Assembly: GCA_016218725.1 (NCBI GenBank)
Contig: JACRDB010000098.1
Span: forward strand, 7,259 to 71,258
Direction: 5' to 3'
DNA length: 64,000 nucleotides
Source: Deltaproteobacteria bacterium
Lineage (GTDB): Bacteria > Myxococcota_A > Polyangia > Polyangiales > Ga0077539
Within the stretch, counting starts at the first letter, position 1, and every line of letters begins with the position of its first letter. The position numbers and the translations under genes were made by a program. Positions 854 to 62,725 of the stretch are shown one piece after another. The notes under the pieces are model-generated. The model did no database searches, was not told the DNA's origin, and saw only the letters and a list, made by a program, of their open reading frames with translations.

Positions 854-1990
854 TTACAGCCCCAAAACGCGCTCGACCAGCACCGGGTCCACCTCGCGGC
901 AGGGGCCCGCCAGCCCCGCGACGCTCTGGAACCAGCCCGCCTCCGGCGAGCCCTCCCGCGCCGTGGCGCAGCGGCGGTAGAGCGCCACCCCCTGGCTCGT
1001 CACGCTCAGGCGCCGCGCCGCGCGGTCCTCCAGGCACTGCTGCAGGCACGCCAGGGCGCCCGCGCTGTCCCCCGCGGGGAAGGTGCACCGCGAGCCCACG
1101 CTCTGCGTCGCCGGCGCGTAGCGCACCAGCACGTCCACCCGCCGGGCCTCGGCGCAGTCCCCGGGCGCCGCCCCCGAGGGCGACGGGCTGCACGCGCTCT
1201 GGGTGTGCCGGTCCAGCCAGCGGGTGCCCGCCCCCACGGAGGTCACCAGGAGCTCCGACGGCGCCGGCACCCCCGCGCAGGGGTCGCCCCCCGCCGAGGG
1301 TGCCCGCCCCGCCTGCGCCAGCGCCATCCCGCACCGCAGCTGCCGCGAGACGTTCCCCGCCCGACACCAGGACAGCTCCCGGTTGGCCGCCTCGCGCGTG
1401 GCGTCGTCCGCGTCGGCGCCGGGCGTCACCGGCACCCACGCGGGCGACGGATCAAAGGACAGGGCCCCCCGCACCTCCGGGCAGGTGTCAAAGCGCGCGA
1501 TCTGGACGTGGTCTACGTGCCCGATCACCGCCACCTCCAGCGTGCCCCCGCGCGCCGCCGTGGCCGTCAGCCCCCGGAGGATCGCCCCCGCGCACACCCA
1601 GCGGTTCACCCCGCGGCCCTGCCCGGGCAGCGCGTCGCAGGCCGCCGTGGCCTCCGCGCGGAAATCGTAGCGCCCAGGGTCGAAGAGCGCGTCGGACCGG
1701 CACGCGAAGCGCCAGTGCAGCGGATCGTCGTCCACCGGGACCAGGTCGCACACGGCCCCGAGCGCCAGCCGCACCCGGTCCAGCGCCGCCATCGCCTCGC
1801 GCACGGTCTCCTCCTGGAGCCCCTGGCGACACCGCCGCTCCAGCGCCCTCACGGCCTCGGCGCTCGCCCCCGCGTCCCCCACCGCCACCGCCGACGGCGC
1901 CAGGGGCTCCCCCTCCGGCGACACCCCCGCGGGCACCGTCGCCCGACACGCGAGCACCCACCCGACCGCCAGCGCGCCAGGGGCACGCAT
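854..1990 (-). CDS. Cys-rich exported protein/lipoprotein with a degenerate OmpA/MotB-like domain
   Basis: Start ATG1990 overlaps the upstream stop (TGATG). Signal-like N-terminus ending WVLAC. OmpA-like motifs SDALFDPG, IGHVD, NRELSWCRA, RRVDVLV. Confidence 0.65.
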   Translation of the reverse strand: MRAPGALAVGWVLACRATVPAGVSPEGEPLAPSAVAVGDAGASAEAVRALERRCRQGLQEETVREAMAALDRVRLALGAVCDLVPVDDDPLHWRFACRSDALFDPGRYDFRAEATAACDALPGQGRGVNRWVCAGAILRGLTATAARGGTLEVAVIGHVDHVQIARFDTCPEVRGALSFDPSPAWVPVTPGADADDATREAANRELSWCRAGNVSRQLRCGMALAQAGRAPSAGGDPCAGVPAPSELLVTSVGAGTRWLDRHTQSACSPSPSGAAPGDCAEARRVDVLVRYAPATQSVGSRCTFPAGDSAGALACLQQCLEDRAARRLSVTSQGVALYRRCATAREGSPEAGWFQSVAGLAGPCREVDPVLVERVLGL

Positions 1991-4323
1991 CAGCGCCCCC
2001 CGGCGAGGTCCACCAGCGTGGACAGGTCCAGCGCCAGGTACGGACTGAACCACGGTTCATCGTCCGCCGTGCCCGCCGTGAGGTGCAGCATCAGCCCCAC
2101 GGACACCAGCCTCGGGGCCACGGACAGCGGCCCCCAGCCAGCCCCCAGGGTGAACCCCACCCCCGCCCGCGTCACCTGCGCATGCTCAAAAGACACCGCG
2201 CTGGCCAGGGAGACCGTCGCGTCCAGCCCGAAGCCCCAGGGCAGCCGCGCGTGGGCGTAGCCCACCGGCAGGAGCGCCCCGAGGGAGGCCGGGGCCGTGA
2301 AGAACGCCGCGAGCTGCACGTCCCCCAGGAGCCCCACGTGGAGCCACCGCGCTGGCGCCAGGGCCCGGCTCTCGCGCACCCGGAAGCTCGCCCGGGCCAG
2401 GCACTCGTAGGGCTGCGTGTCGTCCCGGTAGAGCGCCAGGAACGCGTGGAAGGTCTGGTCCACCAGCAGCCCGTCGGGGTCCGGGGGCACCTCTGCCCGC
2501 ACCCCCGCCGCCGAGCCCCGAGGGCAGCGGTCTTCGCGGGACACCAGCACCACCAGCGCGCTCGACGGCGGCGCCGCGGGCGCGCCCCGCACGCCCCCCA
2601 CCACGGGCAGCGCGTCCGTGAGCACCGTGGTGGCGTCAGGCACGTTCCACACCGCCGCCGCCGTGGGCGACGCCGCGAAGCGGAAGGACAGCGCGCTCCT
2701 CCCCCGCACGAACGCGAACACGTCGTGCTCGTCGTGGTCCAGGGAGCGCCACGGCCGCAGCGGGTCCGTCGCCCCGCCCCCGAGCTGCAGCCCCACGGGC
2801 ACCCAGTGCCTCGCCGGGTCCAGCACCAGCGCGCGCAGGAGCGCCACCCCCTGAGGGCCCCGCGCCGCCTCGGCGCTCCCGGCCTGGCGGAGCTCCAGGG
2901 CCCCAGCCCTCCAGAGCGTGCGTGAGGTCTCGTCGTCCAGCGCACGACAGTCGTTGTCCAGGCAGAGGTAGAGCCCCTCGGAGGCCCCCTGCGGGGCGAT
3001 CCCATCCCCCACCATCGCCACCACCAGCGGCGCCGCGCCCTCCGGGTCCCCCGCGGCCGACGGGAGCGTGCGGCACTCCTCCCGCAGCGCCGTGGACGGC
3101 TCCGCCCCGCCCACCGAGAGCGCCCTCATCCGCCGCTGGAAGCACAAGCCCCTCGGGGCAGTCTCCTGCCCTGCCCGAGCCCCGGTGCCCGCCACGCTGG
3201 CCAACGCCACCGGCGCCGCCACCGCCGAGAGCCTCGCGCACCGCGCCCCCGGTGGCACAAAGGACGGCGCCTCCAGTGGTGTAGGTGTATATCGGTCTGT
3301 GACACACACCTCCAGACCTCGACGTACACTGTCCCACTCATCGAGGGTGGGAACGAGGGTGTTCGACGCTCGGCCGTAGCGCCCGGACAGCGCGCGAGAG
3401 ACCACGGCGTCGGGCACCTGGACGCCGTCGTCGTCGAGGCGCAGGGCGCCATGGACCCTCGGGGGGGCGTCCCCGGAGGGGACGTCTGCGAGCCACAGGG
3501 CCCCGGCGTCGGCGGCGGTGCGGAGCTCTGCGAGGGCGTCCTCGGGGAGCTCCCGGGGCGCGAAGCGGAAGGCCCCGGAGCGCGGCGTCCAGCGCGCGCG
3601 GAACCACGGGTGATTCGGGTCCGCGGGGGTGGCAAAGGCGCGGCGCAGGGCCGTGAGCGGGTCGCCACCGGTGATGCGCCCGACGAGCACCGCGGCCTCG
3701 GCGCCGTCGCGCCCGGCGTACACCGCGTAGGAGGCGCCCGCGTCGAGCACCTCCCGGGCGCGGTCCGTGGGGAGCGTGTGGGCCGTGGGCGCGCGGGACA
3801 GCCCCGGGGCCGCGGCGCCCTCGGGCAGGGGTTGGAAGCGAAGCACCGTGCGCCCGGCCCCGCAGGAGGGGGGCGGCGCGGCCCCGGCGGGGTGTACCCG
3901 GTCGACCACCGGGAGGCGCGTCTGGCTGTCTCCGTGGGCGTAGAACTCCGAGCGGTCGGCGACGAAGAGGTCCGTGCAGCTCTCGCGGAAGAGGGACTCC
4001 ACGGGCCCGGAGCCCCGGCGGGCAAAGAGCGAACGTGGGTTGGTGGCGCTGGGGGCGTGGACCCTCTCGGCCAGGACCAGGGCGAGGGAGGCGAAATCGG
4101 TCTCTGCCGGGGTGACCTGGGCCATCGCGTCGGGAGAGAGCCCGTAGACGCAGCCCGGCTGGGTGCGGAGCACCGTGGCCAGGGTGACCGGCAGGGTGGT
4201 GCCTCGGGCCGCCGCGGGGCTCGACGCCAGGGTCGAGGGCGAGGACACAAAGGCGAAGCAGTCCAGCGCGGCCGCGGGGCGGCCGACCAGGACCAGGACA
4301 GCGGCGACGGCTCCCGAGCGCAT
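1990..4323 (-). CDS. Large exported hypothetical protein with a possible C-terminal outer-membrane beta-strand region
   Basis: Start re-assigned to ATG4323 (MRSGAVAAVLVLVGRPAAA, signal-peptide-like). C-terminal alternating hydrophobic strands (GFGLDATVSL, GVGFTLGAGWG, FSPYLALDL). Coupled to the next gene. Confidence 0.7.
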   Translation of the reverse strand: MRSGAVAAVLVLVGRPAAALDCFAFVSSPSTLASSPAAARGTTLPVTLATVLRTQPGCVYGLSPDAMAQVTPAETDFASLALVLAERVHAPSATNPRSLFARRGSGPVESLFRESCTDLFVADRSEFYAHGDSQTRLPVVDRVHPAGAAPPPSCGAGRTVLRFQPLPEGAAAPGLSRAPTAHTLPTDRAREVLDAGASYAVYAGRDGAEAAVLVGRITGGDPLTALRRAFATPADPNHPWFRARWTPRSGAFRFAPRELPEDALAELRTAADAGALWLADVPSGDAPPRVHGALRLDDDGVQVPDAVVSRALSGRYGRASNTLVPTLDEWDSVRRGLEVCVTDRYTPTPLEAPSFVPPGARCARLSAVAAPVALASVAGTGARAGQETAPRGLCFQRRMRALSVGGAEPSTALREECRTLPSAAGDPEGAAPLVVAMVGDGIAPQGASEGLYLCLDNDCRALDDETSRTLWRAGALELRQAGSAEAARGPQGVALLRALVLDPARHWVPVGLQLGGGATDPLRPWRSLDHDEHDVFAFVRGRSALSFRFAASPTAAAVWNVPDATTVLTDALPVVGGVRGAPAAPPSSALVVLVSREDRCPRGSAAGVRAEVPPDPDGLLVDQTFHAFLALYRDDTQPYECLARASFRVRESRALAPARWLHVGLLGDVQLAAFFTAPASLGALLPVGYAHARLPWGFGLDATVSLASAVSFEHAQVTRAGVGFTLGAGWGPLSVAPRLVSVGLMLHLTAGTADDEPWFSPYLALDLSTLVDLAGGR

Positions 4324-4383
4324 GGGTGCGGTGAGGGTAGAACCCGTGGCGCCGGGGAGGCCACTTTCGGGTACACTCCCGAG

Positions 4384-5367
4384 GTGATGCTTCTTCGGTG
4401 GTGCTCCCTGGGCCTCCTGGCCCTCTACCTCGGGGCCTGCGGCGGGCCCACCCGGGGCGGCTTCAACCCCGCCGACGGGGGAGAGCCCTCGGACACCCGG
4501 GTGACCCCGGTTACGGACACGGCCCTCCCCGGGGACACCGGTCGGCGCTGCGCCCGCCAGGAGGACTGCGACGACGGGTTCCCCTGCACGGACGACGCAT
4601 GCGTGGTCGGGGGCGTGTGCGAGCACCTCCCGAACGACCGGCTGTGCAGGAACCCCGGCGAGCGGTGCTTCCCCACGCGGGGCTGCGCGTCGGGGGCCTC
4701 GTGCATGAGCGACATGGACTGCGACGACCGGGTGGAGTGCACCCGGGACCTGTGCGCCGCAGGCGGCGCGTGCCAGCACCTGCGCAACGACGGGCGCTGC
4801 ACCATGGGCCAGGTGTGCTCGGTGACCTCCGGGTGCGTGGCCATGGGTCGGTGTGCCATGGACGTGGACTGCGACGACCGGGCCTTCTGCAACGGCACCG
4901 AGCGCTGCGTGGGGGGCATGTGCCAGCCCGGGACCCCGCCGGACTGCTCGGACATGGAGCCCTGCACCGGGGACGTGTGCAATGAAATGGCCCGGCGCTG
5001 CGACCACCCGCGGCTGGAGATGTGCGGGGGCATGGTCATGGCGGGCACCTACACCCTGGACATGCCGCCGGCGTATACGTGCGGCGCGGGGAGCTTCGGC
5101 CCCGTCACCCGGGTGACCCTGGCGCTGACCGGGACCGTGGTGACCGTGACGGGCTTCCCGGTGCCGCTCACGGGCACGGCCATGGGGGCGATGTTCAGCG
5201 TGCGCGGCACCCAGTCCCAGGGGGGCTGCACCTGGCAGTACAACCTCCAGGGGTCCTTCACCCGCGCGGGGCGCTTCGACGGGACCTGGAACCTCGCCTT
5301 TGACCTCTGTGACGTGACCCGGATGTGCTTCACGCGCTCCGGGCTCCTGACCGGGAGCAGCATGTGA
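4384..5367 (+). CDS. Cys-rich repeat lipoprotein (CDDxxxCTxDxC repeats) with C-terminal beta domain
   Basis: GTG4384/ATG4387 start, lipobox LGAC, repeated DCDDxxxCTxDxC units. Confidence 0.8.
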   Translation: MMLLRWCSLGLLALYLGACGGPTRGGFNPADGGEPSDTRVTPVTDTALPGDTGRRCARQEDCDDGFPCTDDACVVGGVCEHLPNDRLCRNPGERCFPTRGCASGASCMSDMDCDDRVECTRDLCAAGGACQHLRNDGRCTMGQVCSVTSGCVAMGRCAMDVDCDDRAFCNGTERCVGGMCQPGTPPDCSDMEPCTGDVCNEMARRCDHPRLEMCGGMVMAGTYTLDMPPAYTCGAGSFGPVTRVTLALTGTVVTVTGFPVPLTGTAMGAMFSVRGTQSQGGCTWQYNLQGSFTRAGRFDGTWNLAFDLCDVTRMCFTRSGLLTGSSM

Positions 5368-6482
5368 ACCTCCGCGCGTGGTGGTGTCTGGTCCTGGCCC
5401 TGGGTTGCTCGGACAACACGGGGCGCTCCTTCAGCGACGCGGGCGGCGGCGACGCGGGCTGCGCCCGCAACGAGGACTGCGACGACCGGGTGCCCTGCAC
5501 CCGGGACCGGTGCCTCGTGGGCGGCGTGTGCGAGCACGACCCGGACAACACCATGTGCACCGCCCCGCAGGTGTGCTCCGCCGCCGGCTGCGGCAGCCCC
5601 GGCGCCCGGCGGTGCACCGCCACCGCCCAGTGCGACGACATGGTGCCCTGCACCCGGGACTCGTGCCTGGTGGACGGCACCTGCCGGAGCACCCCGCAGG
5701 ATGACCTGTGCCCCATGGGCCAGCGCTGCGACGCCGCCCGCGGGTGCGGCTCGGGCATGCCCACGCCCACCATGTGCCGCATGGCCTCGGACTGCATGGA
5801 CATGTTCGACTGCACCGAGGACGCCTGCGGCGTGGACGGGCGCTGCATCCACGTCCCGCAGAACAGCCGCTGCGGCGTCGGGCGCTCCTGCGCCGCGGGC
5901 ATGGGCTGCATCGCCACCACCGCGTGCTCCAGCAACCGCGACTGCGACGACGGGCGCCGCTGCAACGGCGCCGAGCGCTGCTCGGAGCTGGCCTGCGTGG
6001 CCGGCACCGCGGTCAACTGCGATGACATGGTCGCCTGCACCATGGACGCCTGCGCGGAGACCGGCGCGGAGATGTGCACGCACACGGTGATGGCGTCGTG
6101 CATGGGCATGGTGCGCAGCGGGATCTACAACGCCATGACGCCCGCGCGCTTCACCTGCTCGGCCCTGGGCATGGTGGCCGTGATGCTGGACATCTCGTAC
6201 TACCAGTTCAGCGTGAGCGCCACGGAGCTGGTGGTGACCCCGGGGCCCTCGGGCCCCACCATGCGCCAGTCCCCCGCCCCCACCGGCGCCGAGTTCGACG
6301 TGAACGGCACCGTCGCGGGCACCTGCAACGAGCTGTACCGCCTCCAGGGCCGCTTCACCGACGCCACGCACTTCACCGGGACCTTCTCCGTGCGCTTCGT
6401 GGACGGCTTCCCCGGCGGGTGCTCCCTCGCCCCGGACTGCGTCGCCAGGATGTTCCCCGTGGTGGGTACCGCCAGGATGTAG
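5364..6482 (+). CDS. Cys-rich repeat lipoprotein, paralogue of the upstream gene
   Basis: GTG5364 overlaps the upstream TGA. Lipobox ALGC, same repeats, similar C-terminal domain (YRLQGRFT vs YNLQGSFT). Confidence 0.8.
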   Translation: MNLRAWWCLVLALGCSDNTGRSFSDAGGGDAGCARNEDCDDRVPCTRDRCLVGGVCEHDPDNTMCTAPQVCSAAGCGSPGARRCTATAQCDDMVPCTRDSCLVDGTCRSTPQDDLCPMGQRCDAARGCGSGMPTPTMCRMASDCMDMFDCTEDACGVDGRCIHVPQNSRCGVGRSCAAGMGCIATTACSSNRDCDDGRRCNGAERCSELACVAGTAVNCDDMVACTMDACAETGAEMCTHTVMASCMGMVRSGIYNAMTPARFTCSALGMVAVMLDISYYQFSVSATELVVTPGPSGPTMRQSPAPTGAEFDVNGTVAGTCNELYRLQGRFTDATHFTGTFSVRFVDGFPGGCSLAPDCVARMFPVVGTARM

Positions 6483-6772
6483 CGCCGCCCTGGGACCTCG
6501 GCGAAACCCGCAACGACGGCGGGCCCTGTCCGAGCTCAGGACCCAGGTCCCGAACCCAGCACCCAGGCCCTGACCGCAACCCCTCCCAGAGTCTCCACGA
6601 GGAGGAAATCTCAGACAGAATCTCGAGCGGGGTGGTGGACCCATTTTCGCGAGCGCAACCGGGGCCATTCTGCTAAGCCGACACATCAGGAGACCGTCCG
6701 CCATTTCCGACTGGAAGGTGTCTGACAAGCGCAGTGCGCATCCCGTGGGACAGACCCGCGGTGGCTGTCAAA

Positions 6773-7735: not shown

Positions 7736-7815
7736 GGTCAACCTCCTGTCTCTCGACGGGTCCGAACATGCGCCCGCTCTATCCATGTGTCGAATCGATG
7801 GTATACATCCCGATC

Positions 7816-8730: not shown

Positions 8731-8780
8731 GTGCGCTCAACCCTCCGAACGGTGTCCGGTCGCACCCGCCGAGCGTGGTT

Positions 8781-9349: not shown

Positions 9350-9376
9350 TTGCAGGTACCAGGGGCGTGGCCTGGG

Positions 9377-15504: not shown

Positions 15505-16018
15505 CGCAGGGTGTCTTGGGCTCCTCCTCGGGTGCGGGACCGCCGCGGGCGGGGACCATGTCGGTGAAGACCCGCTGAGGGACCCCCGAGGACGCTGGAC
15601 CGTGTATTTTCCCACACCCCCCTGGGAGCGGGTGGAGGTGACCGCGACCCGGGGGGTGCTCCGGGTGCCGGCGCCCCAGGGGACCCTGGTGATGGGGGGG
15701 CTCCCGGGCGCGCGCATGGGCGTCGTGGTGGAGGAGCGCTCGGGCACCACCGCGAGGCAGTGGGTGGAGGCCCAGGTGGCGTCCTCCGTGGGGCGCGGGG
15801 CGGTACTTACGAGGCCCCCCGCGGAGCGGGCGGTCACGGGCGGCAGGGTGCTCTCGGCCACGCTGGACGAGGGCTCCGGGGGACACCTCCTGGCCGCCGC
15901 GGACCTGCCGGGGGGAGGGACCCTCACGCTGGAGTTCCGTGCGCTCCGAGCGGTCACCGATGACCCGGACCTGACGGCCCTGGTGGCCTCCGTAGAGCTC
16001 CGAAGGAGCGCACCGTGA
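15485..16018 (+). CDS. Hypothetical lipoprotein
   Basis: Lipobox LLGC. Overlaps the neighbours in an operon-like way. Confidence 0.65.
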   Translation: MWTRIASAGCLGLLLGCGTAAGGDHVGEDPLRDPRGRWTVYFPTPPWERVEVTATRGVLRVPAPQGTLVMGGLPGARMGVVVEERSGTTARQWVEAQVASSVGRGAVLTRPPAERAVTGGRVLSATLDEGSGGHLLAAADLPGGGTLTLEFRALRAVTDDPDLTALVASVELRRSAP

Positions 16019-27849: not shown

Positions 27850-27886
27850 GGTGGCCAAGCGTAGCACGGCGCCGCGCCCGGCGCCG

Positions 27887-51785: not shown

Positions 51786-53204
51786 GTGCAGCGCGCGCTC
51801 GTCGTGGTGGCCCTGGTCGCCTGCCGCGCGCCGGCCGCGGGCGACGCGGGGCGCGGGGATGCCCCGGGGGACCCGTGGGACGCCCCCCCGGAGGACGCGC
51901 CCCACGCCTCGGACCGCGCAGACGCCCCCCTCGACGCCCCTCCCGACGCGCGCTCAGACGTCCCCCTCGACACCCCCCTCGACACCCCCCTCGACGCCCC
52001 CCTCGACGCCCCCCTCGACGCTCCAGGTGACGCCCCCCTCGACGCTCCAGGAGACGCCCCGGACGCGCCCCCGGTGCCCTGCGAGCCCGCGTGCGTCCAC
52101 GGTCGGCGCTGCGCCTCCGGGCGCTGCGAGCCCGCGTGGACGCCCATGGCCACGGACGGGTCCCCCGCGCCGAGGAGCCAGCACGCGATGGCCAGCGCCG
52201 GGCGTGAGGTGCTTGTCTGGGGCGGCACGGACGTCCTCCGGGTCTTTGGCGACGGGGCGAGGTACCACCTGGACACCCGCCGGTGGCGCGCCATGACCTC
52301 GGAGAGCGCGCCTGCGCCGCGCTTTGCGATGGCCTGGGCCTGGACCGGGACGGAGCTCCTGGTCTGGGGCGGCCGAGACGGCGCGGGACAGCCCCTCGGG
52401 GACGGCGCCCGCTATGACCCCTCGCTCGATCGCTGGACCGCGATGACGTCGGAGGCAGCGCCCTCTCCACGCCACGGGCTGGCCTGGGCCTGGACCGGGA
52501 CCGAGCTCCTGGTGTGGGGCGGCACGGGCCCGAGGACCCTCCTCGGGGATGGAGCGCGCTACGACCCCTCCCTGGATCGCTGGAGGCCGATGTCCTCCGA
52601 GGGCGCCCCGGGGCCTCGTACGGGCGCGCAGTGCGCGTGGACCGGGAGGCTCTTCCTTGTCTGGAGCGGGAGCGGCCCGGGGGCGCTCCTCGGTGACGGC
52701 GGCGCCTACGACCCCGAGAGGGACCGCTGGACGGCCCTCCCCACGGAGGGCGCTCCCACGCCCAGGACGCGCGCCACCAGCGTCTTTACGGCGCGAGGGT
52801 GGTTCCTCTGGGGGGGCTTCGGGCCGAGCTCTTCGCAGCGCGGCGACGGGGCCCTCTACGACCCCGCGAGGGAGCGTTGGAGCGCCCTCTCCAGCGTCGG
52901 GGCGCTCGGCGCCCGGGCCGACGCCGTGGGGGTCTCCGCGGGCGGGAGGGTGCTCCTCTGGGGCGGCCTGGCGGTGCGCTCCGTGAGCCCCCCGGCCACC
53001 GAGCGCTTCGGGGACGGCGCCGCCTGGGACGCGCTCCGCGGGCGCTGGAGCCCGCTGGAGCCCCTCGGGGCGCCCAGCGCCCGCAACGAGCACGGGGCGG
53101 TCTGGACCGGCGAGGAGCTCGTCGTGTGGGGCGGGGCCGGGGCCCTGGCGCGCTCGGGCACCGGCGGGAGGCTCCAGCCCGAAGCGAGCGCTTCCACACC
53201 GTAG
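51786..53204 (+). CDS. Kelch-repeat lipoprotein
   Basis: Lipobox LVAC, six repeats of WTGxELLVWGG...GDGARYDPxxDRW. Confidence 0.88.
   Translation: MQRALVVVALVACRAPAAGDAGRGDAPGDPWDAPPEDAPHASDRADAPLDAPPDARSDVPLDTPLDTPLDAPLDAPLDAPGDAPLDAPGDAPDAPPVPCEPACVHGRRCASGRCEPAWTPMATDGSPAPRSQHAMASAGREVLVWGGTDVLRVFGDGARYHLDTRRWRAMTSESAPAPRFAMAWAWTGTELLVWGGRDGAGQPLGDGARYDPSLDRWTAMTSEAAPSPRHGLAWAWTGTELLVWGGTGPRTLLGDGARYDPSLDRWRPMSSEGAPGPRTGAQCAWTGRLFLVWSGSGPGALLGDGGAYDPERDRWTALPTEGAPTPRTRATSVFTARGWFLWGGFGPSSSQRGDGALYDPARERWSALSSVGALGARADAVGVSAGGRVLLWGGLAVRSVSPPATERFGDGAAWDALRGRWSPLEPLGAPSARNEHGAVWTGEELVVWGGAGALARSGTGGRLQPEASASTP
51921..52070 (+). repeat. Intragenic 12-bp tandem repeat (gacgcccccctc) encoding a D-A/T-P-L/G linker
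   Basis: About 12 imperfect units read directly from the sequence. Confidence 0.85.
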
Positions 53205-53947: not shown

Positions 53948-54712
53948 GTGGCCGCCTCCGCCGAGGGCGTGCGCATCGACGGCCTCCGCAAGACCTGGCC
54001 CGATGGCACCGTGACCCTCGACGGCCTCTCCCTGGAGGTCCCCAGCGGTGAGGTCGTGGCCATCCTCGGGCGCTCCGGCAGCGGCAAGAGCACGCTTTTG
54101 CGCTGCGCCTGCCGGCTGGTGGAGCCCACCGGCGGGCGCGTCTTCGTCGGCGGCACCGAGCTCACGGGCCTGCGCGGGCGCGCGCTCGCTCGCGCGCGGG
54201 CGCGCGTGGGCTTCGTGTTTCAGCAGTTCAACCTCGTGCGGTCCTACACCGCGCTCGACAACGTCCTGTGCGCCCGCGTCGCCCACGTCCCCTGGCTCCG
54301 CGGCACCCTCGGGCTCTGGGGCGAGGCCGACCGGGCGCTCGCCCGGCGCTGCCTCGACGAGGTCGGCCTCGGGGAAAAAGCCCTCAGCCCCGCCCGGGAG
54401 CTCTCCGGCGGGCAGCAGCAGCGCGTCGCCATCGCCAGGGCCTTCGCCCAGGAGCCCGGGGCCCTCTTCGCCGACGAGCCCACGGCCTCCCTCGACCCGC
54501 ACCTCGCCGAGACCGTCATGGACCTCCTGCGGTCCTATGGCCGCGCCCACCAGGTGCCCGTGCTCGTCAATGTCCACACCGTCGAGCACGCGCGGCGCTT
54601 CGCCGACCGCGTGCTCGGCCTCCAGCAAGGTCGCCTCGTCCACGACGGCCCCGCCAGCGCCCTCGCCGACCGCGCCCTGGAGACCATCTACGGCCCCAAG
54701 GAGGTCCGGTGA
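53948..54712 (+). CDS. phnC: Phosphonate/phosphite ABC transporter ATP-binding protein
   Basis: GRSGSGKST, FQQFNLV, LSGGQQQRVAIARA, ADEPTASLDP, NVH. Confidence 0.9.
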   Translation: MAASAEGVRIDGLRKTWPDGTVTLDGLSLEVPSGEVVAILGRSGSGKSTLLRCACRLVEPTGGRVFVGGTELTGLRGRALARARARVGFVFQQFNLVRSYTALDNVLCARVAHVPWLRGTLGLWGEADRALARRCLDEVGLGEKALSPARELSGGQQQRVAIARAFAQEPGALFADEPTASLDPHLAETVMDLLRSYGRAHQVPVLVNVHTVEHARRFADRVLGLQQGRLVHDGPASALADRALETIYGPKEVR

Positions 54713-56454
54713 AGCGCCTCCTCTGGGTGCTGTGTATGTCCCTGTGGGTGTGTGTCCCACGTGTCGTATACGCCCAGGAGACCGTGCCCGAGGCGGTGCT
54801 CCTGGGCTTCAACCCGGCGGAGAACGCCCAGACGCTCCAGCGCTCGGCGGACGCGCTGGCGGGGCTGCTCTCGGCGCGGATCCAGCTCCCGGTGAGGGCC
54901 GTGGTGACGCTGGACTACACCACCCTGGTGGAGGCGATGCGCAACGGGCACGTGCACTTCGCGTGGCTGACGCCCTCGCCGCTGGTGCTGGCCGAGCGCC
55001 TGGTCGGGGTGGAGGTGCTCCTCACGCAGGTGCGCCGCGGGAGCCCGACGTACTTCTCCGCCCTGGTGGTGCGGGAGGACTCGCGCTTCCACACGGTGGA
55101 GGACCTGCGGGGGCGGAGCATCGCCTGGGTGGACCCCACGAGCACCAGCGGCTTCGTGATCCCGCGCTACCTCCTCCTGGAGCGGGGCCTGGACCCGTCG
55201 CGGTTCTTCACCCGGCAGGTGTTCGCGGGCGGCCATGACACCGCGGTGATCGCCGTGCAGCGCGGCCAGGTGGACGCCGCGGCGGTGTGGGCCGACCCCC
55301 CGGACGAGCGCACCGGCGCCTGGACGCGGTACCTCCGCGCGCACCCCACGCCCAGGCTCCGCCCGATTCTGTACTCCCCGCCGGTGCCCAGCGACGCCAT
55401 CGCCGTGACGCGCGCCTTCCGCCGCGAGCACCCGCTCCTGGTGCGGAGCGTCTCAGCGGCGCTGGTGAGCATCGGTGAGAGCGAGGAGGGCCGAGGGGTG
55501 CTCCGGGAGCTCAACGCCACGGACGGCTTCGTGGCCGCCAACCCCGCCCAGTACGCCCTGGTGCGCCGGGCCTTCGAGGCCACCCGGGACGCCCGCGTGG
55601 GCACGCGCTCCGGGGCCTTCGAGCACCCGCGGGACGTGGCCTTCTTCGGCGCCCTGGTGGCCCTCCTGGCGGTCCTGGCCTGGCTCGGGCGCCGCACCTC
55701 GGGCCCGAGGCTCCGCGTGGCGTCCTGGGCGCTGTTCCTCCTGTGCCTCGGCTGGAGCGCCGCGGCGGCCACGATCCCCGCGGCGGAGTTCGCCCGCGGC
55801 TTCGGGCGCATCGTGGAGTTCCTCCGGGGGATGTTCCCGCCGGACCGGGGCGTGGCCGCGGAGGTCCTGGAGGCCACGGTGCTCACCATCCGCCTCGCCC
55901 TGGTGGGCACCGTCCTGGGCGTCCCCGCGGCGCTGGTGTTGGGCTTCCTGGCCGCGGAGAACGTCACCCCCTCCCGGGGCGTGCGCGCCGCGGCGCGCTT
56001 CGTCTGCAACCTGGACCGCTCCGTGGACCTCTTGATCGTGGGGCTCATCCTGGTGAGCGCCTACGGGCCCGGGGCCTTCCCCGGCGTCGGGGCCCTGGCG
56101 GTGCACACCGTGGGCTCCCTCGGCAAGCAGTTCTACGAGACCCTGGAGACCATGGACCCGGGCCCCGTCGAGGCCATGACCAGCGTGGGCGGCACGCGCC
56201 TCCAGGTGCTGCGCTGGGGCGTCTGGCCGCAGTTCGCGCCGCACTTCGTCTCGCAGGCGCTCTTCCGCTTCGAGCTCAACGTGCGCGGTGCGGTGGTGCT
56301 GGGCCTCGTGGGCGCCCAGGGCATCGGGTTCCTGCTCCAGACGTACATGCGCGGCGCGGAGTACGCCAAGGTCACCGTGGTGGTGGCCGCCATCGTCGCG
56401 CTGGTGATGGCCCTGGACGCCGTCTCGTCCAGGCTCCGCCGCCAGGTGCGGTAG
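54709..56454 (+). CDS. Fused PhnD substrate-binding + PhnE permease protein
   Basis: Signal peptide, DYTTLVEAM, DPTSTSG, GGHD (PhnD), continuing in frame into GSLGKQFYE, GPVEAM, RFELNVR...LGLVGAQGIG (PhnE). Confidence 0.88.
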   Translation: MKRLLWVLCMSLWVCVPRVVYAQETVPEAVLLGFNPAENAQTLQRSADALAGLLSARIQLPVRAVVTLDYTTLVEAMRNGHVHFAWLTPSPLVLAERLVGVEVLLTQVRRGSPTYFSALVVREDSRFHTVEDLRGRSIAWVDPTSTSGFVIPRYLLLERGLDPSRFFTRQVFAGGHDTAVIAVQRGQVDAAAVWADPPDERTGAWTRYLRAHPTPRLRPILYSPPVPSDAIAVTRAFRREHPLLVRSVSAALVSIGESEEGRGVLRELNATDGFVAANPAQYALVRRAFEATRDARVGTRSGAFEHPRDVAFFGALVALLAVLAWLGRRTSGPRLRVASWALFLLCLGWSAAAATIPAAEFARGFGRIVEFLRGMFPPDRGVAAEVLEATVLTIRLALVGTVLGVPAALVLGFLAAENVTPSRGVRAAARFVCNLDRSVDLLIVGLILVSAYGPGAFPGVGALAVHTVGSLGKQFYETLETMDPGPVEAMTSVGGTRLQVLRWGVWPQFAPHFVSQALFRFELNVRGAVVLGLVGAQGIGFLLQTYMRGAEYAKVTVVVAAIVALVMALDAVSSRLRRQVR

Positions 56455-56462: not shown

Positions 56463-57335
56463 TCACATCCGGGCGCAGGCGCCGTAGCTGGGCGGCCGGT
56501 CCGTCAGGCCCTGGCACATCCGCCCCGCGGGGCAGGTGCTCATCGCCGCCATGGGGTTGCACGCCCGGCGGCAGAACCGGTTGGGCATGGCCATGTCGCA
56601 CATCCCCGGCGACTCTTGAATGCACAGGTACCCCGGCAGGCACGCGCCGCTGGCGCAGCAGGGCATACCGTCCCCCACGGGGTTCATGGACACCGCAAAG
56701 CACGCCAGGGACCCGTCCGCGGAGGTCACCGCGCAGTACGGCCGCTCCATCGGGCAGCCGTTGCCCATCAGCGCCAGCGGGTCGCAGGTGACCGCCTGCT
56801 GGCACACATGGATCATCGTGCCGGTGATGGTCACCGCCCGGTCGCACACGCTCCCGGCGGTGCCCCCCCGCGCTGTGTCCCGGCACGAGGCGTTGTCCCC
56901 CTCGCAGCACATCTTCACGCAGGTGCGCGCCGTGGAGCCCATCATCCCCAGGCACACGAAGCCCTCCCGGCAGTCCGTGTTGCCCATGCACGCCGCGCCG
57001 CTCTCCCGCGTGCCCGCCGCCGCGCACGCCGCCGTGCTCCCGCCGCCCATCATGGCCTGCAGGTAGCACGCCTGCCCCGCCATGGCGCAGCCGGTGTTCA
57101 CCACCGGGTTGCAGGGCCCCAGCATCGCCGCGCAGGCCCCCCCCGATGGCGGCGGCGCCGTGTCCGGCCGGGGCCCCGTGTCACCCGGTACGGCGGTGTC
57201 GGGCGCTGTGGTGTCCTGTACGGCGGTGTCCGCCGTGGCGGTGTCCACCGGTGGGGCCCCGGAGTCCGTCGGTGTGTTCATGCCACTGGAGCACCCGAGG
57301 AAAACGAGCGAGACCACCCAACCCATGCGGTTCAT
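56463..57335 (-). CDS. Cys/Met-rich lipoprotein
   Basis: AGGAGG RBS, lipobox FLGC, DT/DS linker, CNP/CDP-initiated disulfide-rich repeats. Confidence 0.8.
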   Translation of the reverse strand: MNRMGWVVSLVFLGCSSGMNTPTDSGAPPVDTATADTAVQDTTAPDTAVPGDTGPRPDTAPPPSGGACAAMLGPCNPVVNTGCAMAGQACYLQAMMGGGSTAACAAAGTRESGAACMGNTDCREGFVCLGMMGSTARTCVKMCCEGDNASCRDTARGGTAGSVCDRAVTITGTMIHVCQQAVTCDPLALMGNGCPMERPYCAVTSADGSLACFAVSMNPVGDGMPCCASGACLPGYLCIQESPGMCDMAMPNRFCRRACNPMAAMSTCPAGRMCQGLTDRPPSYGACARM

Positions 57336-57401: not shown

Positions 57402-59156
<1,755 letters not shown>

Positions 59157-61471: not shown

Positions 61472-62725
61472 GTGGATGCCAGCACCCGAGCGGCGTGGGT
61501 CATCGTGGGGGGGGCCACCGTCACCGCGGTCGCATGCGGGGTCTGGCCCACCTTCCCGGACGACCGCCTGCACCCCCCTTCCCTGGACTCCGGCCTCGCG
61601 GACGGCAACGTCCCGGACACCGGCACCCTCACCGACTCCGGTGCCCGGCCCATGGACAATGGAGTTGACACCCTGGAGCTGGACCGCACGCTGGCGGAGC
61701 AGCCGTTGAAGGACACCTCCGGGGATGTGCTGCCGGAGGTGATGACGGACCCGTGCGCGCGCCCGCCGGTGGCGCCGGTGACGGCGGTGCGCCTGGCCGA
61801 GGGGGTGACGGACTCCCTGGACCTGGCGTTTGACGGCGCGGGCTCGCTGGCGGTGGGCTCTCGCGGCGCGGTGGACCTGGTGAGCCCCGCGGGGGGGCGC
61901 ACGTCGCTGTTGTCGTCGCTGGGCGGGGACGTGACGGTGCTGCGCTTCACGGCGTCGGGGGAGCTGCTCCTGGGGCTCCAGGCCCGGGATGACGCCGGGA
62001 CGCCCGTGTGGAGCCTGGTGCAGGCCCCGGCGGCGGGGGGGAGCGTGATGCCGAGGGTGTCGGGGTTGCGCTCCGTGGGGGGCCTGGCGCTGGACCCCAG
62101 CGGCGGGCTCTGGGTCGCGGACACGGAGGCGGGCACGGTGCTCCGGGTGCCTCCGGGGGCCACCACGCCCAGGGTGATGGTGCGGGACGTGGTGGCGCCC
62201 ACGCACCTCACGTTCAACCGGGACGCGTCGGCGCTGTTCATCGCCACGCGCTCGCGCACGGTGTACCGCGTGGCGGTCACGTACCCGACGCCGCCCGCGG
62301 ACGCGGGCGCGGGGGATGTCCCTGACGCGGAGCCTTCGGACCTGGGCCCCGCAGGAGACGCCGCTGTGGACGTTCCCTCGGACGGCGACCTGCCGCCCTG
62401 CCGGGGCCAGACCGAGGACGGGGTGACCACGGGCTGCGGCCTGCCCTCGGCCGGGGGCTTCGAGCCCATCACGGGTCTGGCGATGGACGTCTGTGGGTAC
62501 CTCTACGTGGCCACCGAGGGGATGGTCATCTGGCGCATCCCGCCCGCCGAGGGGCCCTTCCAGCGCTTTGTCACGGGCGTCCAGCCACGGGGGCTGGCCT
62601 TTGGCCAGGGGCCAGGCTTTGTGTCAACTGCGTTGTACACCCTGAGCGCGGAGACCGGCGCGGTGTTCACGGCGGACGTAGGGATCCCCGGGGTACCCCG
62701 GCCGGTGCCTGCGCGGGGGCCGTAG
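61472..62725 (+). CDS. SMP-30/NHL-like beta-propeller lipoprotein
   Basis: Lipobox AVAC, GLALDPSGGLWVAD, GLAMDVCGYLYVA, PRGLAFG. Confidence 0.75.
   Translation: MDASTRAAWVIVGGATVTAVACGVWPTFPDDRLHPPSLDSGLADGNVPDTGTLTDSGARPMDNGVDTLELDRTLAEQPLKDTSGDVLPEVMTDPCARPPVAPVTAVRLAEGVTDSLDLAFDGAGSLAVGSRGAVDLVSPAGGRTSLLSSLGGDVTVLRFTASGELLLGLQARDDAGTPVWSLVQAPAAGGSVMPRVSGLRSVGGLALDPSGGLWVADTEAGTVLRVPPGATTPRVMVRDVVAPTHLTFNRDASALFIATRSRTVYRVAVTYPTPPADAGAGDVPDAEPSDLGPAGDAAVDVPSDGDLPPCRGQTEDGVTTGCGLPSAGGFEPITGLAMDVCGYLYVATEGMVIWRIPPAEGPFQRFVTGVQPRGLAFGQGPGFVSTALYTLSAETGAVFTADVGIPGVPRPVPARGP

What the first reader, a model, noticed from the sequence alone, without database searches (positions are those of the whole stretch)
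854..62725. Exported proteins are almost completely lysine-free while cytoplasmic proteins are not
Seen (manual counts from the translations). Exported proteins with 0 Lys: 854-1990, 1990-4323 (777 aa), 4384-5367, 5364-6482, 13546-15504 (652 aa), 15485, 16015, 28904-30475, 37032-37967 and the Kelch protein. Lys only at position 2 of the signal peptide: 19522 and the FG-GAP protein. 1 Lys: 45510-47702 (730 aa), the sulfatase (~970 aa), 56463, 61472 and CglF. 2 Lys: the OmpA protein (823 aa) and the TonB receptor (728 aa). That is about ten Lys in roughly 9,000 residues. In contrast PyrG has about 24/562 and 42863-43972 about 19/369, and Rho, the P1B ATPase and 39054 are also Lys-rich. High GC lowers Lys generally (established), but it does not explain the split by compartment, and the low-GC half of the FG-GAP gene also has no Lys. 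Inference: selection against surface or periplasmic primary amines, e.g. self-protection from the organism's own Lys-specific protease, lysine oxidase or amine-crosslinking weapon, or from an amine-reactive compound. I do not know of a description of this for such a lineage.
Basis: partly seen in the sequence, partly recalled or inferred. Interest (0 to 1): 0.9.

Follow-up and report, generated by a model that had tools for sequence, protein, structure and literature searches.

The report
Lysine-free exported proteome in a myxobacterial family
In this uncultured myxobacterial family, nearly every protein part that leaves the cytoplasm has had its lysines replaced, mostly by arginine, while cytoplasmic proteins keep them; genome GC content does not explain this and it looks like selection.

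Summary
In the window, 18 exported-type ORFs hold 8 Lys in 8,547 residues (0.09%), against 133 in 4,898 (2.7%) for 13 cytoplasmic-type ORFs. Genome-wide, 1,307 predicted exported proteins have 0.45% Lys and 44% have none. The 2,718 proteins without signal peptide or TM segment have 1.90%.

All 5 sampled genomes of the same family (GC 64-73%) show the split. None of 12 other genomes of the phylum (GC 62-74%) shows it as strongly. The effect is specific to Lys: Asn, Phe, Tyr, Ile and Met are not depleted. K+R stays constant.

Within the same genes, cleaved signal peptides keep Lys and mature parts do not. In a TonB receptor family, a clade of 28 sequences has Arg fixed at lysine columns that are 96-100% conserved in 52 outgroup sequences.

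So this is directional selection against extracytoplasmic Lys. It is not GC drift, and it runs opposite to the published Lys-over-Arg preference of Sec substrates.

The cause is not established. The best candidate is exported copper lysyl oxidases: 7 paralogues here and 28 of 31 family genomes, against 1 of 8 sister-family genomes. Lysyl oxidase also occurs in relatives with normal Lys, so it is not sufficient.

The parts
854..1990 (-). Exported hypothetical protein, 378 aa, 0 Lys, 39 Arg
   Evidence: no Pfam family
1990..4323 (-). Exported hypothetical protein, 777 aa, 0 Lys, 71 Arg
   Evidence: no Pfam family
4384..5367 (+). Predicted lipoprotein, 327 aa, 0 Lys
5364..6482 (+). Predicted lipoprotein, 372 aa, 0 Lys
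13546..15504 (+). HEAT-repeat protein with signal-peptide-like N-terminus, 652 aa, 0 Lys, 74 Arg. My gene caller wrongly preferred the opposite-strand ORF 11881-14703.
   Evidence: Pfam HEAT_2 E=3e-34
15485..16018 (+). Small exported protein with lipobox-like N-terminus, 177 aa, 0 Lys
16015..16548 (+). Small exported protein, 177 aa, 0 Lys
17104..19512 (+). OmpA-family protein with CarboxypepD_reg domains; 2 Lys in 802 aa from this start (4 in the longest ORF, from 16759)
   Evidence: Pfam OmpA E=1e-21
19522..20556 (+). Exported protein, 344 aa; its only Lys is residue 2
25954..27867 (-). FG-GAP repeat lipoprotein, 637 aa; its only Lys is residue 8, inside the signal peptide
   Evidence: Pfam FG-GAP E=2e-31
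28904..30475 (+). Exported hypothetical protein, 523 aa, 0 Lys, 59 Arg
31693..33879 (-). TonB-dependent receptor, 728 aa, 2 Lys (238, 688). Only two Lys columns are kept across the Lys-poor clade (26 and 27 of 28 sequences), and most of its members, like this protein, have exactly 2 Lys; I did not map residues 238 and 688 onto those columns.
   Evidence: Pfam Plug and TonB_dep_Rec; homologue analysis
34107..37028 (+). Sulfatase with HEAT repeats, 973 aa, 1 Lys, 107 Arg
37032..37967 (-). Predicted lipoprotein, 311 aa, 0 Lys
45510..47702 (+). Lipoprotein with MopE-type Cu-binding motif and PPC domain, 730 aa, 1 Lys
51786..53204 (+). Exported Kelch-repeat protein, 472 aa, 0 Lys
54709..56454 (+). 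Fusion of a periplasmic phosphonate-binding domain and a PhnE-type permease, 581 aa. Lys at 2 (signal peptide), 473 and 554 (permease part); none in the binding domain.
   Evidence: In 64 homologues K/(K+R) is 0.042 in the binding part and 0.136 in the permease part.
56463..57335 (-). Predicted lipoprotein, 290 aa, 1 Lys
61472..62725 (+). Exported or anchored protein, 417 aa, 1 Lys
57402..59090 (-). Contrast: CTP synthase PyrG, cytoplasmic, 24 Lys in 562 aa
   Evidence: PF06418 match at this place
42863..43972 (-). Contrast: cytoplasmic-type protein, 19 Lys in 369 aa
   Evidence: not annotated here
62862..64000 (+).
40276..42831 (+).
39054..40253 (+). Contrast: cytoplasmic-type protein, 14 Lys in 399 aa

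Best explanation
Shown: in this uncultured Myxococcota family (31 species-level genomes, all metagenome-assembled), long-standing directional selection has removed lysine from almost every polypeptide segment that crosses the inner membrane. This covers lipoproteins, outer-membrane barrels, secreted proteins and periplasmic housekeeping proteins. Lysine was replaced mainly by arginine, so positive charge is kept. The few lysines that remain are probably indispensable ones. Cytoplasmic proteins and the cleaved signal peptides of the same genes use lysine normally. Inferred: the envelope and secretome are kept free of epsilon-amino groups so that they are inert to a lysine-directed chemistry working outside the cytoplasm. 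The best current candidate is the family's own exported copper lysyl oxidases. These enzymes turn peptidyl-lysine and other primary amines into aldehydes plus H2O2. They could be used against foreign proteins, cationic peptides or amine antibiotics, or to cross-link material, without damaging the producer. I put the selection claim at about 0.85, a lysine-directed extracytoplasmic agent of any kind at about 0.4, and lysyl oxidase as that agent at about 0.2-0.25.
For: Selection rather than GC:
(1) Exported/cytoplasmic Lys ratio is 0.12-0.29 in 5 of 5 family genomes (GC 64.2-73%; bootstrap upper limits at most 0.52). It is 0.48-1.04 in 12 of 12 other genomes of the phylum (GC 62-74%). Mann-Whitney P=0.002, though kin are not independent.
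(2) Lys is the only strongly shifted residue. The double ratio (exported/cytoplasmic in the family over the same outside it) is K 0.26-0.31, R 1.16-1.20, N 0.91-1.00, F 0.93-0.99. K+R in exported proteins is 9.5% against 9.1%.
(3) Within genes: in 460 G000 lipoproteins, K/(K+R) is 0.115 in the signal peptide (0.084 without residue 2) and 0.024 in the mature part. In non-family genomes it is 0.157 and 0.189.
(4) TonB receptor homologues taken from a public protein set, so independent of my gene caller: the 27 closest (at least 49% identity) have 0-5 Lys. 92 of the next 93 have 8-28; the exception, P0035, has 5 and groups with the Lys-poor clade. Ten columns hold K in at least half of 52 Lys-normal sequences. 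In the 28 Lys-poor sequences, Arg is fixed or nearly fixed in 5 of them, including columns with 100% and 96% K, and K is kept in 2.
(5) Periplasmic housekeeping is purged too: DegP-like proteins have 0, 1 and 1 K; TolB has 1; a BamA-like protein of 1,075 aa has 1; a TamB-like protein of 1,552 aa has 1.
(6) Ribosomal proteins, EF-Tu and GroEL have 8-20% Lys at GC3 0.95-0.99.
(7) The direction is opposite to the published Lys preference of Sec substrates in E. coli, S. meliloti and B. subtilis (PMC9110029, section 8 read).
Lysyl oxidase:
PF01186 gives 7 matches in G000 and 0 in 14 control genomes. It is in 28 of 31 family genomes, in 1 of 8 sister-family genomes of the order, and in 23 of 119 other genomes of the phylum sample. 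All 7 paralogues keep Lys at the cofactor position, 5 of 7 in the motif GHKQSFC, and 4 of 7 have no other Lys. 5 of 7 are predicted exported, and the other 2 have lipobox-like N-termini. Among non-family genomes, the share of Lys-free exported proteins is higher in 6 LOX-positive genomes (0.05-0.26) than in 6 LOX-negative ones (0.00-0.12); P=0.04, small samples. An archaeal LOX oxidises lysine-containing polypeptides, polymyxin and aminoglycosides (PMC6452851, abstract and passages).
Against: LOX is not sufficient. G116, G121, G100, G095, G020 and G133 carry LOX, yet their exported K/(K+R) is 0.15-0.28, close to their cytoplasmic values. No LOX domain was found in 3 of 31 family genomes: G141 (76% complete), G142 (91%) and G143 (92%). 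A protein search found only linker or Cys-rich tail matches there. Their Lys status could not be measured. There is no dose relation inside the family: G009 has 1 LOX and an exported Lys of 0.33%, while G000 has 7 and 0.45%. Of 150 LOX cluster representatives, many carry 5-13 Lys, so LOX does not generally force Lys out even of itself. A Skp/OmpH-like periplasmic protein keeps 11 Lys and a cytochrome c keeps 6. My crude topology tests on membrane proteins were weak. Inside against outside loops gave K/(K+R) 0.128 against 0.095. One set of 34 '2-TM sensor-like' proteins went the wrong way in pooled Lys (loop 1.29%, C-terminus 0.78%). That set contains Lon proteases and other false members, and 16 of 34 loops against 7 of 34 C-termini have zero Lys. 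Gene calls and signal peptides come from my own heuristics, and samples of other genomes hold only 14-50 exported proteins each.
Confidence: 0.4

Rival explanations
1. Another lysine-directed agent, not lysyl oxidase, drives the purge. It could be a strictly Lys-specific protease of the organism or its competitors, or an amine-reactive small molecule that the family makes or meets (aldehyde, quinone, acylating metabolite). It would be active in the periplasm and outside.
For: The same facts that show selection against the epsilon-amine, plus the fact that LOX is neither sufficient nor universal. The purge reaches periplasmic housekeeping proteins, as expected for an agent that passes through or acts in the periplasm.
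Against: No candidate was found. The M35 Lys-N family gave no match, but no positive control rang either. Tyrosinase was in 0 of 21 genomes and copper amine oxidase in 0 of 21. Transglutaminase core and YkuD L,D-transpeptidases are in 21 of 21, with no contrast between the family and its sisters. Lys-C-type S1 proteases, LodA and biosynthetic gene clusters were not examined. Cys and Met are not depleted in exported proteins (exported/cytoplasmic ratios 1.83 and 1.11 in G000), which argues against a general oxidant or a soft electrophile.
Confidence: 0.25
2. Adaptation to an alkaline exterior or an inverted pH gradient. This is the pattern published for Bacillus halodurans, where Sec substrates no longer prefer Lys and slightly prefer Arg. 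Lys loses its charge and its 'proton ratchet' benefit at high external pH.
For: It is the only published precedent I found for a reversed Lys/Arg preference in secreted proteins (PMC9110029, section 8). Lys-to-Arg exchange in alkaline-adapted secreted enzymes is known (recalled, not seen here).
Against: The Mrp antiporter subunit MnhG was found in 0 of 13 family genomes but in 3 of 8 sister-family genomes. Exported proteins of the family are less acidic than those of relatives (net charge per 100 residues -1.6 to -1.9 against -4.7), the opposite of alkaliphile and halophile secretomes. The effect is far stronger than the mild reversal described. The single strong DNA holder is labelled groundwater metagenome, but it may be the source sample, so this is weak.
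Confidence: 0.1
3. A neutral by-product: strong GC pressure, present or ancestral, acting on fast-evolving and weakly constrained exported proteins, while conserved cytoplasmic proteins retain functional Lys.
For: High GC lowers Lys in general (PMC13696103, passages). Lys falls with gene GC in both classes. Exported proteins usually evolve faster. A return from Arg (CGN) to Lys needs several steps, so a relic of an ancestral GC extreme could persist.
Against: Family members at GC 64-66% (GC3 0.77-0.82) have exported Lys of 0.33-0.61%. Non-family genomes at GC 70-74% have 1.3-2.9%. Asn, Phe, Tyr, Ile and Met are not co-depleted. GC3 is the same in exported and cytoplasmic genes (0.934 against 0.930). 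Signal peptides of the same genes keep Lys. Lys columns that are invariant in the outgroup are uniformly Arg in the clade, not degenerate. The remaining exported Lys are conserved at least as well as cytoplasmic ones within the family: 57-62% against 39-43% in 2 of the 4 family samples, but 17% and 0% in the other 2. All rest on only 2-21 sites.
Confidence: 0.03
4. Lysine economy: Lys is scarce for this lineage, so it is kept out of proteins that are lost to the cell.
For: Cost minimisation in extracellular proteins has been described (recalled, not seen here).
Against: lysA is present above the curated cut-off. Cell-retained lipoproteins and periplasmic proteins are purged most strongly. Arg, the replacement, needs more nitrogen. 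Abundant cytoplasmic proteins hold 8-20% Lys.
Confidence: 0.02
5. Artefact of gene calling in GC-rich DNA: wrong-frame ORFs are Lys-poor, Arg-rich and Ala/Leu-rich, and could pass as exported proteins.
For: My caller made at least one such error in the window (11881-14703 on the minus strand). The first version converged on wrong frames in 4 genomes and was then corrected.
Against: The same pipeline gives no split in 12 other GC-rich genomes. Lys-free proteins have Pfam domains. Public protein sets predicted by others show the same clade-wide pattern.
Confidence: 0.01

Closest known systems
Lys-over-Arg preference of Sec substrates and its reversal in the alkaliphile Bacillus halodurans (Allen et al. 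2022, PMC9110029; passages and section 8 read)
   Same: A compartment-specific shift in which basic residue exported proteins use, measured as the fraction of K in K+R, and attributed to conditions outside the cytoplasm or to transport.
   Different: The direction is opposite to E. coli, S. meliloti and B. subtilis. The effect is far more extreme than the mild reversal in B. halodurans (K/(K+R) 0.02-0.06 against 0.16-0.24 in the cytoplasm). It is a trait of a whole family of Myxococcota with no sign of alkaliphily. It means the cells bear a heavy load of arginine, which that paper found rate-limiting for Sec transport.
Lysine deserts: ubiquitin-evading toxin A chains, UPS components, and actinobacterial proteins linked to pupylation (PMC13696103 and PMC10665810; passages read)
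   Same: Long Lys-free stretches interpreted as avoidance of a lysine-directed modification. Ten window proteins meet the desert definition (at least 150 residues, or at least 50% of the length, without Lys).
   Different: Those cases concern cytosolic tagging systems and single proteins, or proteomes confounded by GC. Here the purge is topological (extracytoplasmic only), proteome-wide (over 1,300 proteins) and independent of GC. In find mode, neither paper gave any passage on secreted, extracellular or periplasmic proteins as a class: the one hit for 'secret' and the one for 'extracellular' in PMC10665810 concern macrophage products and vesicles, and PMC13696103 gave none.
GC-driven replacement of Lys by Arg across bacterial proteomes (cited in PMC13696103; original papers not read)
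   Same: Lys is low and Arg is high in a 73% GC genome. Cytoplasmic Lys is also somewhat low (1.9%).
   Different: It does not predict a compartment split, the specificity for Lys, or persistence at 64% GC.
Prokaryotic lysyl oxidases (Grau-Bove et al. 2015, PMC4448552; Pestov et al. 2019, PMC6452851; passages read)
   Same: The 7 paralogues match PF01186. They keep the cofactor Lys and the His-x-His-x-His stretch. They have Cys-rich tails like the Sorangium enzyme mentioned in PMC6452851.
   Different: The function of bacterial LOX is called enigmatic or cryptic in both papers. Neither mentions an expansion to 7 exported copies, near-universal presence in one family, or a link to a Lys-free secretome.
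Acidic, Lys-poor proteomes of halophiles, and acidic secretomes of salt- or alkali-exposed bacteria (cited in PMC13696103; otherwise recalled)
   Same: Lys is disfavoured in proteins exposed to the harsh medium.
   Different: There is no excess of Asp+Glu: exported 11.1% against cytoplasmic 12.2%. Exported proteins are less acidic than in relatives.

Membership tests
Lysine-desert proteins | A continuous Lys-free region of at least 150 residues, or at least 50% of the protein (definition as quoted in PMC13696103) | tested here: met
   10 window proteins of 177-777 aa have no Lys at all. 44% of 1,307 predicted exported proteins have none after residue 40.
Lysine-desert proteins | Link to a cytosolic lysine-tagging system (ubiquitin or Pup) | tested here: not met
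   The Lys-free proteins are the exported ones. Cytoplasmic proteins, which would be exposed to such tagging, keep Lys. Presence of a Pup system was not searched.
GC-driven Lys-to-Arg compositional shift | Lys depletion tracks genome or gene GC and is shared by genomes of equal GC | tested here: not met
   Family genomes at 64-66% GC show the split; non-family genomes at 70-74% do not.
GC-driven Lys-to-Arg compositional shift | Other residues with AT-rich codons (F, Y, M, I, N) fall together with Lys | tested here: not met
   Exported/cytoplasmic ratios: N 1.40, F 0.98, Y 1.06, M 1.11, I 0.86, K 0.24.
Alkaliphile-type reversed Lys/Arg usage in Sec substrates | Exported proteins prefer Arg over Lys relative to cytoplasmic proteins | tested here: met
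   K/(K+R) is 0.029-0.060 in exported proteins against 0.163-0.238 in cytoplasmic ones, in 5 of 5 family genomes.
Alkaliphile-type reversed Lys/Arg usage in Sec substrates | Alkaliphilic physiology (Mrp-type antiporter, acidic exported proteins, alkaline habitat) | tested here: not met
   MnhG was found in 0 of 13 family genomes. Exported proteins are less acidic than in relatives. Habitat pH was not testable.
Lysyl oxidase (PF01186) - the 7 G000 paralogues | LOX catalytic domain above Pfam's gathering score | tested here: met
   7 of 7 are above the cut-off, E from 6e-35 to 1e-9.
Lysyl oxidase (PF01186) - the 7 G000 paralogues | The lysine that forms the lysine tyrosylquinone cofactor, and the copper-binding histidines (positions recalled from the mammalian enzyme, not from a call) | tested here: met
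   K is in GHKQSFC in 5 of 7 and at the equivalent place in the other 2. A C-H-x-H-x-H stretch and a D-x-Y-x(4)-D-C-Q stretch are visible in the printed domains. That these are the cofactor residues is my recollection.
Lysyl oxidase (PF01186) - the 7 G000 paralogues | Amine oxidase activity on peptidyl-lysine | not testable with these tools
   Needs expression and assay.

The most novel reading that the evidence does not exclude
A compositional form of self/non-self discrimination. The family has stripped the epsilon-amino group from its whole envelope and secretome. It can therefore run a lysine- and amine-destroying chemistry (the expanded, exported lysyl oxidases, or another lysine-specific agent) in its periplasm and surroundings. 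That chemistry would inactivate or cross-link any foreign protein, cationic peptide or amine antibiotic while leaving the producer untouched. Immunity would then be encoded in the amino-acid alphabet of a compartment, not in a dedicated immunity protein.
Probability: 0.2. Interest if true: 0.95.

Novelty: new variant of a known kind. Interest (0 to 1): 0.85.

Why it matters
One of the twenty amino acids is nearly excluded from a whole cellular compartment, across a bacterial family and independently of GC. The six full-text searches I ran found no description of this.

It runs against the measured rule that Sec substrates favour Lys because Arg is slow to translocate. The selective force must therefore be strong, and it is a clean natural test case for that rule.

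It gives the so far 'enigmatic' bacterial lysyl oxidases a testable role.

If the self-protection reading holds, it is a new principle of immunity to one's own extracellular weapons.

It is also a source of enzymes that are naturally free of Lys. These would resist Lys-C and Lys-directed chemistry, which is useful for site-specific labelling.

There are practical consequences too. Lys-based methods (Lys-C digestion, NHS-ester surface labelling, TMT on Lys) will miss most of this secretome. K/(K+R) alone can predict localisation in this lineage.

Tried and rejected
Halophile signature: rejected. Exported Asp+Glu is 11.1% against 12.2% in cytoplasmic proteins.

Lys auxotrophy: rejected. lysA is present.

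Tat instead of Sec export: rejected. A Tat-like motif is in 4.7% of exported proteins in G000 (61 of 1,307) and 4.7% outside the family (17 of 361).

Other amine-directed families were searched. Tyrosinase was in 0 of 21 genomes, with no control ringing. Copper amine oxidase was in 0 of 21. YkuD was in 21 of 21 and transglutaminase core in 21 of 21, so neither contrasts. M35 gave 0 of 1, with no control ringing.

Lys-rich exported substrates for LOX: none seen among the 60 most Lys-rich proteins, which are ribosomal proteins, HU-like proteins, GroEL and EF-Tu. None was seen next to the 7 LOX genes either.

Topology tests on inner-membrane proteins with a home-made predictor were weak or contaminated. 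I do not rely on them.

The 20-kb loci around PyrG from named genomes were too small to score. By eye, a 'Sandaracinaceae bacterium' MAG locus (L150) has 4 exported proteins with 0, 2, 0 and 1 Lys, and a 'Myxococcaceae' MAG locus (L148, PyrG 80% identical) has 3, 3, 1 and 0.

Ortholog substitution counts against the partial genomes rest on few exported pairs (1-16 per genome). I use them only as a hint.

The first version of my gene caller converged on wrong frames in several genomes (Arg 13-14%). It was replaced, and those numbers are not used.

Clustering of the exported set gave one single-linkage cluster of 213 proteins. I did not annotate it.

Literature: searches found no paper on a Lys-free exported or periplasmic proteome. 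Supplementary files were not consulted and may hold per-organism Lys/Arg tables, for example for PMC9110029.

I made no binding or structure predictions.

Full report
WHAT THE WINDOW IS. The window is G000:C58:7259-71258, part of a 7.94-Mb draft genome of 171 contigs with 72.8% GC. The closest PyrG loci in named records are metagenome-assembled genomes titled 'uncultured Myxococcaceae bacterium' (80% identity), 'Polyangiaceae bacterium' and 'Sandaracinaceae bacterium' (69% each). Homologues of window proteins carry source names such as 'Polyangiales bacterium' and 'Polyangia bacterium'. So the organism is an uncultured member of the Myxococcota. Its family in the genome collection (f1) holds 31 species-level genomes in 10 genera, all with 40 or more contigs.

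CHECK OF THE OBSERVATION. Ten of ten 'zero-Lys' proteins of 177-777 aa have none. Two have Lys only inside the signal peptide. The others have 1-2. PyrG has 24 of 562 and ORF 42863-43972 has 19 of 369. Pooled, 18 exported-type ORFs hold 8 Lys and 798 Arg in 8,547 residues. Thirteen cytoplasmic-type ORFs hold 133 Lys and 447 Arg in 4,898 residues. The binomial probability is 2e-88. Pfam confirms the OmpA-family protein, the TonB-dependent receptor, the sulfatase with HEAT repeats, the Kelch and FG-GAP proteins, a MopE/PPC lipoprotein and a fusion of a phosphonate-binding domain with a permease.

GENOME-WIDE. No gene caller or SignalP was available, so I wrote a codon log-odds gene caller with a GC-frame filter. 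I added a heuristic classifier for signal peptide, lipobox and TM segments that treats K and R alike and scores Lys only after residue 40. Results for G000:
- exported: n=1,307, K 0.45%, R 9.08%, 44% with zero Lys
- no SP and no TM: n=2,718, K 1.90%, R 9.77%, 15% with zero Lys
- multi-TM: K 1.29%
- lipobox class: n=541, K 0.20%

The 'exported' proteins with the most Lys are mostly false positives: ribosomal proteins L10 and S17, Rossmann-fold enzymes and FtsH. The real exceptions are a Skp/OmpH-like protein with 11 Lys and a cytochrome c. True exported proteins with mis-called starts sit in the 'cytoplasmic' class, for example the window's TonB receptor and OmpA protein. The true contrast therefore exceeds the measured four-fold.

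NOT GC. I ran the same pipeline on 80-220-kb samples of 16 other genomes of the phylum.
- Family f1: G010 (GC 72.5%), G006 (71.5%), G008 (66.0%) and G009 (64.2%) have exported/cytoplasmic Lys ratios of 0.29, 0.12, 0.24 and 0.13. Their K/(K+R) is 0.029-0.060 in exported proteins against 0.174-0.238 in cytoplasmic ones.
- Twelve genomes of nine other families (GC 61.9-73.8%) have ratios of 0.48-1.04. Their exported K/(K+R) is 0.13-0.30, mostly close to their cytoplasmic values (exported/cytoplasmic 0.58-1.28).

So 5 of 5 family genomes show the strong split and 0 of 12 others do (Mann-Whitney P=0.002, though kin are not independent). A family member at 64% GC has 0.33% Lys in exported proteins, while an unrelated genome at 73.8% GC has 1.29%.

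Lys is also the only residue that behaves this way. In G000 the exported/cytoplasmic ratios are K 0.24, N 1.40, F 0.98, Y 1.06, M 1.11 and I 0.86. Relative to the same ratio outside the family, K is 0.26-0.31 and R is 1.16-1.20. E is 0.81-0.82 and W 0.77-0.82. C (1.16-1.39), M (1.16-1.38), H (0.82-0.92), Y (0.84-0.92) and I (0.85-0.93) shift modestly. The remaining eleven residues lie between 0.91 and 1.15. K+R in exported proteins is unchanged (9.5% against 9.1%). GC3 is the same in exported and cytoplasmic genes (0.934 and 0.930). Abundant cytoplasmic proteins carry 8-20% Lys at GC3 0.95-0.99.

WITHIN-GENE AND WITHIN-PROTEIN CONTROLS. In 460 G000 lipoproteins the cleaved signal peptide has K/(K+R) 0.115 (0.084 without residue 2) and the mature part 0.024. 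In 847 Sec-type proteins the values are 0.189 and 0.062. In the four other family samples, lipoproteins give 0.120 and 0.028. Outside the family they give 0.157 and 0.189, and Sec-type proteins 0.241 and 0.246. Expression level, gene age, local GC and horizontal transfer cannot explain a difference inside one gene.

In the fusion protein at 54709-56454 and 63 homologues, the periplasmic binding part has 74 K and 1,668 R (K/(K+R) 0.042; 27 of 64 have zero Lys). The permease part has 226 K and 1,436 R (0.136).

My crude topology predictions for other membrane proteins gave only a weak difference (0.095 outside, 0.128 inside). A '2-TM sensor-like' set of 34 proteins went the other way in pooled Lys because it contains Lon proteases and other false members. 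I report this but do not build on it.

A DISCRETE, FIXED EVOLUTIONARY CHANGE. The window's TonB-dependent receptor was searched against 5.8 billion public proteins. This is independent of my gene calls. The 27 closest homologues (49-100% identity) have 0-5 Lys, mostly exactly 2. From 48% identity downward, which includes Polyangium and Labilithrix proteins, 92 of the next 93 have 8-28 Lys. The exception, P0035, has 5 and groups with the Lys-poor clade.

I aligned the first 80 of the 120 listed. Ten columns have K in at least half of the 52 Lys-normal sequences. In the 28 Lys-poor sequences:
- five of these columns are Arg in 25-28 of 28, including columns where the outgroup has K in 100% and 96%
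- two columns, both 100% K in the outgroup, keep K in 26 and 27 of 28
- three are mixed

Weighted over all outgroup Lys cells, the clade has R 43%, K 12%, A 7% and S 6%.

Uniform, charge-conserving replacement at strongly constrained sites is what directional selection against Lys predicts. Relaxed constraint does not predict it.

Periplasmic housekeeping proteins are included. DegP-like proteins have 0, 1 and 1 Lys. TolB has 1. A BamA-like Omp85 protein of 1,075 aa has 1, and the TamB-like neighbour of 1,552 aa has 1. PBP1a-like proteins have 5-9.

COMPARISON WITH THE KNOWN RULE. Allen et al. 2022 (PMC9110029; passages and section 8 read) show that Arg is rate-limiting for Sec transport. They also show that Sec substrates of E. 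coli, S. meliloti and B. subtilis prefer Lys over Arg relative to cytosolic proteins. Only in the alkaliphile B. halodurans is this lost or slightly reversed. In my samples the non-family Myxococcota sit near parity. The family does the opposite of the rule to an extreme degree, with 9% Arg in exported proteins.

I found no sign of alkaliphily. The Mrp subunit MnhG is in 0 of 13 family genomes and in 3 of 8 sister-family genomes. The family's exported proteins are less acidic than those of relatives. Tat-like signals are not enriched (4.7% in G000 and 4.7% outside the family). The one strong DNA holder among public runs is labelled groundwater metagenome and may be the source sample.

LOOKING FOR THE CAUSE. 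lysA is present. An M35 Lys-N protease was not found, but there was no positive control.

Lysyl oxidase (PF01186) gave 7 matches in G000 and none in 14 control genomes. Its distribution:
- 12 of 12 other family genomes in the first sample
- 1 of 8 sister-family genomes of the order
- 28 of 31 genomes of the whole family
- 25 of 121 in a phylum-wide sample, of which 23 of 119 lie outside the family

The seven G000 paralogues are Cys-rich. Five of seven are predicted exported, and the other two have lipobox-like N-termini. All keep Lys at the position I recall as the cofactor lysine: GHKQSFC in 5 of 7. Four of seven have no other Lys. Published work calls bacterial LOX function enigmatic. It shows that one prokaryotic LOX oxidises lysine-containing polypeptides, polymyxin and aminoglycosides (PMC6452851 and PMC4448552; passages read).

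Against LOX as the cause:
- Six LOX-positive genomes outside the family have near-normal exported Lys.
- Three family genomes, two of them 91-92% complete, lack a detectable LOX domain even with a protein query.
- Copy number does not scale with the effect inside the family.
- Many of 150 LOX cluster representatives carry 5-13 Lys.

A weak hint in favour: outside the family, the share of Lys-free exported proteins is 0.05-0.26 in 6 LOX-positive genomes and 0.00-0.12 in 6 LOX-negative ones (P=0.04).

Other amine-directed families gave no contrast. Tyrosinase and copper amine oxidase were in 0 of 21 genomes, and YkuD and transglutaminase core were in 21 of 21.

VERDICT. It is shared by every sampled member of an uncultured Myxococcota family, is independent of GC and is specific to lysine. 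It is best read as long-term selection against epsilon-amino groups on anything that leaves the cytoplasm. The reason is open. Self-protection from a lysine-directed extracytoplasmic chemistry is the most economical reading. The family's exported lysyl oxidases are the only concrete candidate I found, and they are clearly not sufficient alone.

Six full-text searches found no description of such a proteome. Supplements were not available.

LIMITS. The gene caller and signal-peptide predictor are home-made. Samples of other genomes are small. All genomes are metagenome-assembled. Related genomes are not independent.

Noticed in passing
With the MopE-type Cu-motif lipoprotein at 45510-47702, this looks like a metal (copper?) handling neighbourhood. 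That could matter for copper-dependent lysyl oxidases.
   Followed up: no
window 54709-56454 (+): The periplasmic phosphonate-binding protein and a PhnE-type permease are fused in one ORF. All 64 full-length homologues found are at least 60% identical and come from Myxococcota-labelled or unnamed metagenome records, so the fusion looks clade-specific.
   Followed up: partly
window 27887-28711 (-): Three small adjacent ORFs (135, 63 and 66 aa) are unusually Lys-rich for this genome. Two share an N-terminal stretch (…QPLDQALDVSGYEELDL… and …QPLNQALDIQGYNHLDL…).
   Followed up: no
window 11881-14703 (-) against 13546-15504 (+): My gene caller chose a 940-aa minus-strand ORF (13 Lys, 89 Arg) that overlaps the plus-strand HEAT-repeat ORF. 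Pfam supports the plus-strand ORF (E=3e-34). This is an example of shadow ORFs in GC-rich DNA.
   Followed up: partly
G000 genome-wide: Exported proteins are very Cys-rich (2.83% against 1.54% in cytoplasmic proteins), more so than in relatives (1.79% against 1.13%). The LOX paralogues have 19-51 Cys each, apart from the weakest match on C66, which has 7.
   Followed up: no
G000 genome-wide: All-against-all BLAST of 2,213 exported or Lys-free proteins gives one single-linkage cluster of 213 proteins (median 668 aa, K 0.12%). It is probably held together by shared repeat domains and was not annotated.
   Followed up: no
G000 C109:30031-30477 and C34:2557-2976: A small exported protein of about 140-148 aa with no Lys and 19-20 Arg lies directly next to two of the seven LOX genes. 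It could be a partner or chaperone.
   Followed up: no
G000 C105:18084-24916: A TamA-like Omp85 protein (725 aa, 1 Lys) is followed by a 1,552-aa TamB-like protein with a single Lys and 155 Arg.
   Followed up: no
G013 C12:378589-379380: In this sister-family genome (70% complete), PyrG matches in four pieces in different frames. This suggests frameshift errors in that assembly, which may blur its intermediate Lys ratio of 0.61.
   Followed up: no
L150 (a record titled Sandaracinaceae bacterium MAG), 1607-17642: Four exported proteins next to PyrG have 0, 2, 0 and 1 Lys (353, 284, 257 and 686 aa) at 74% GC. This named MAG may belong to the Lys-poor lineage or be close to it.
   Followed up: partly
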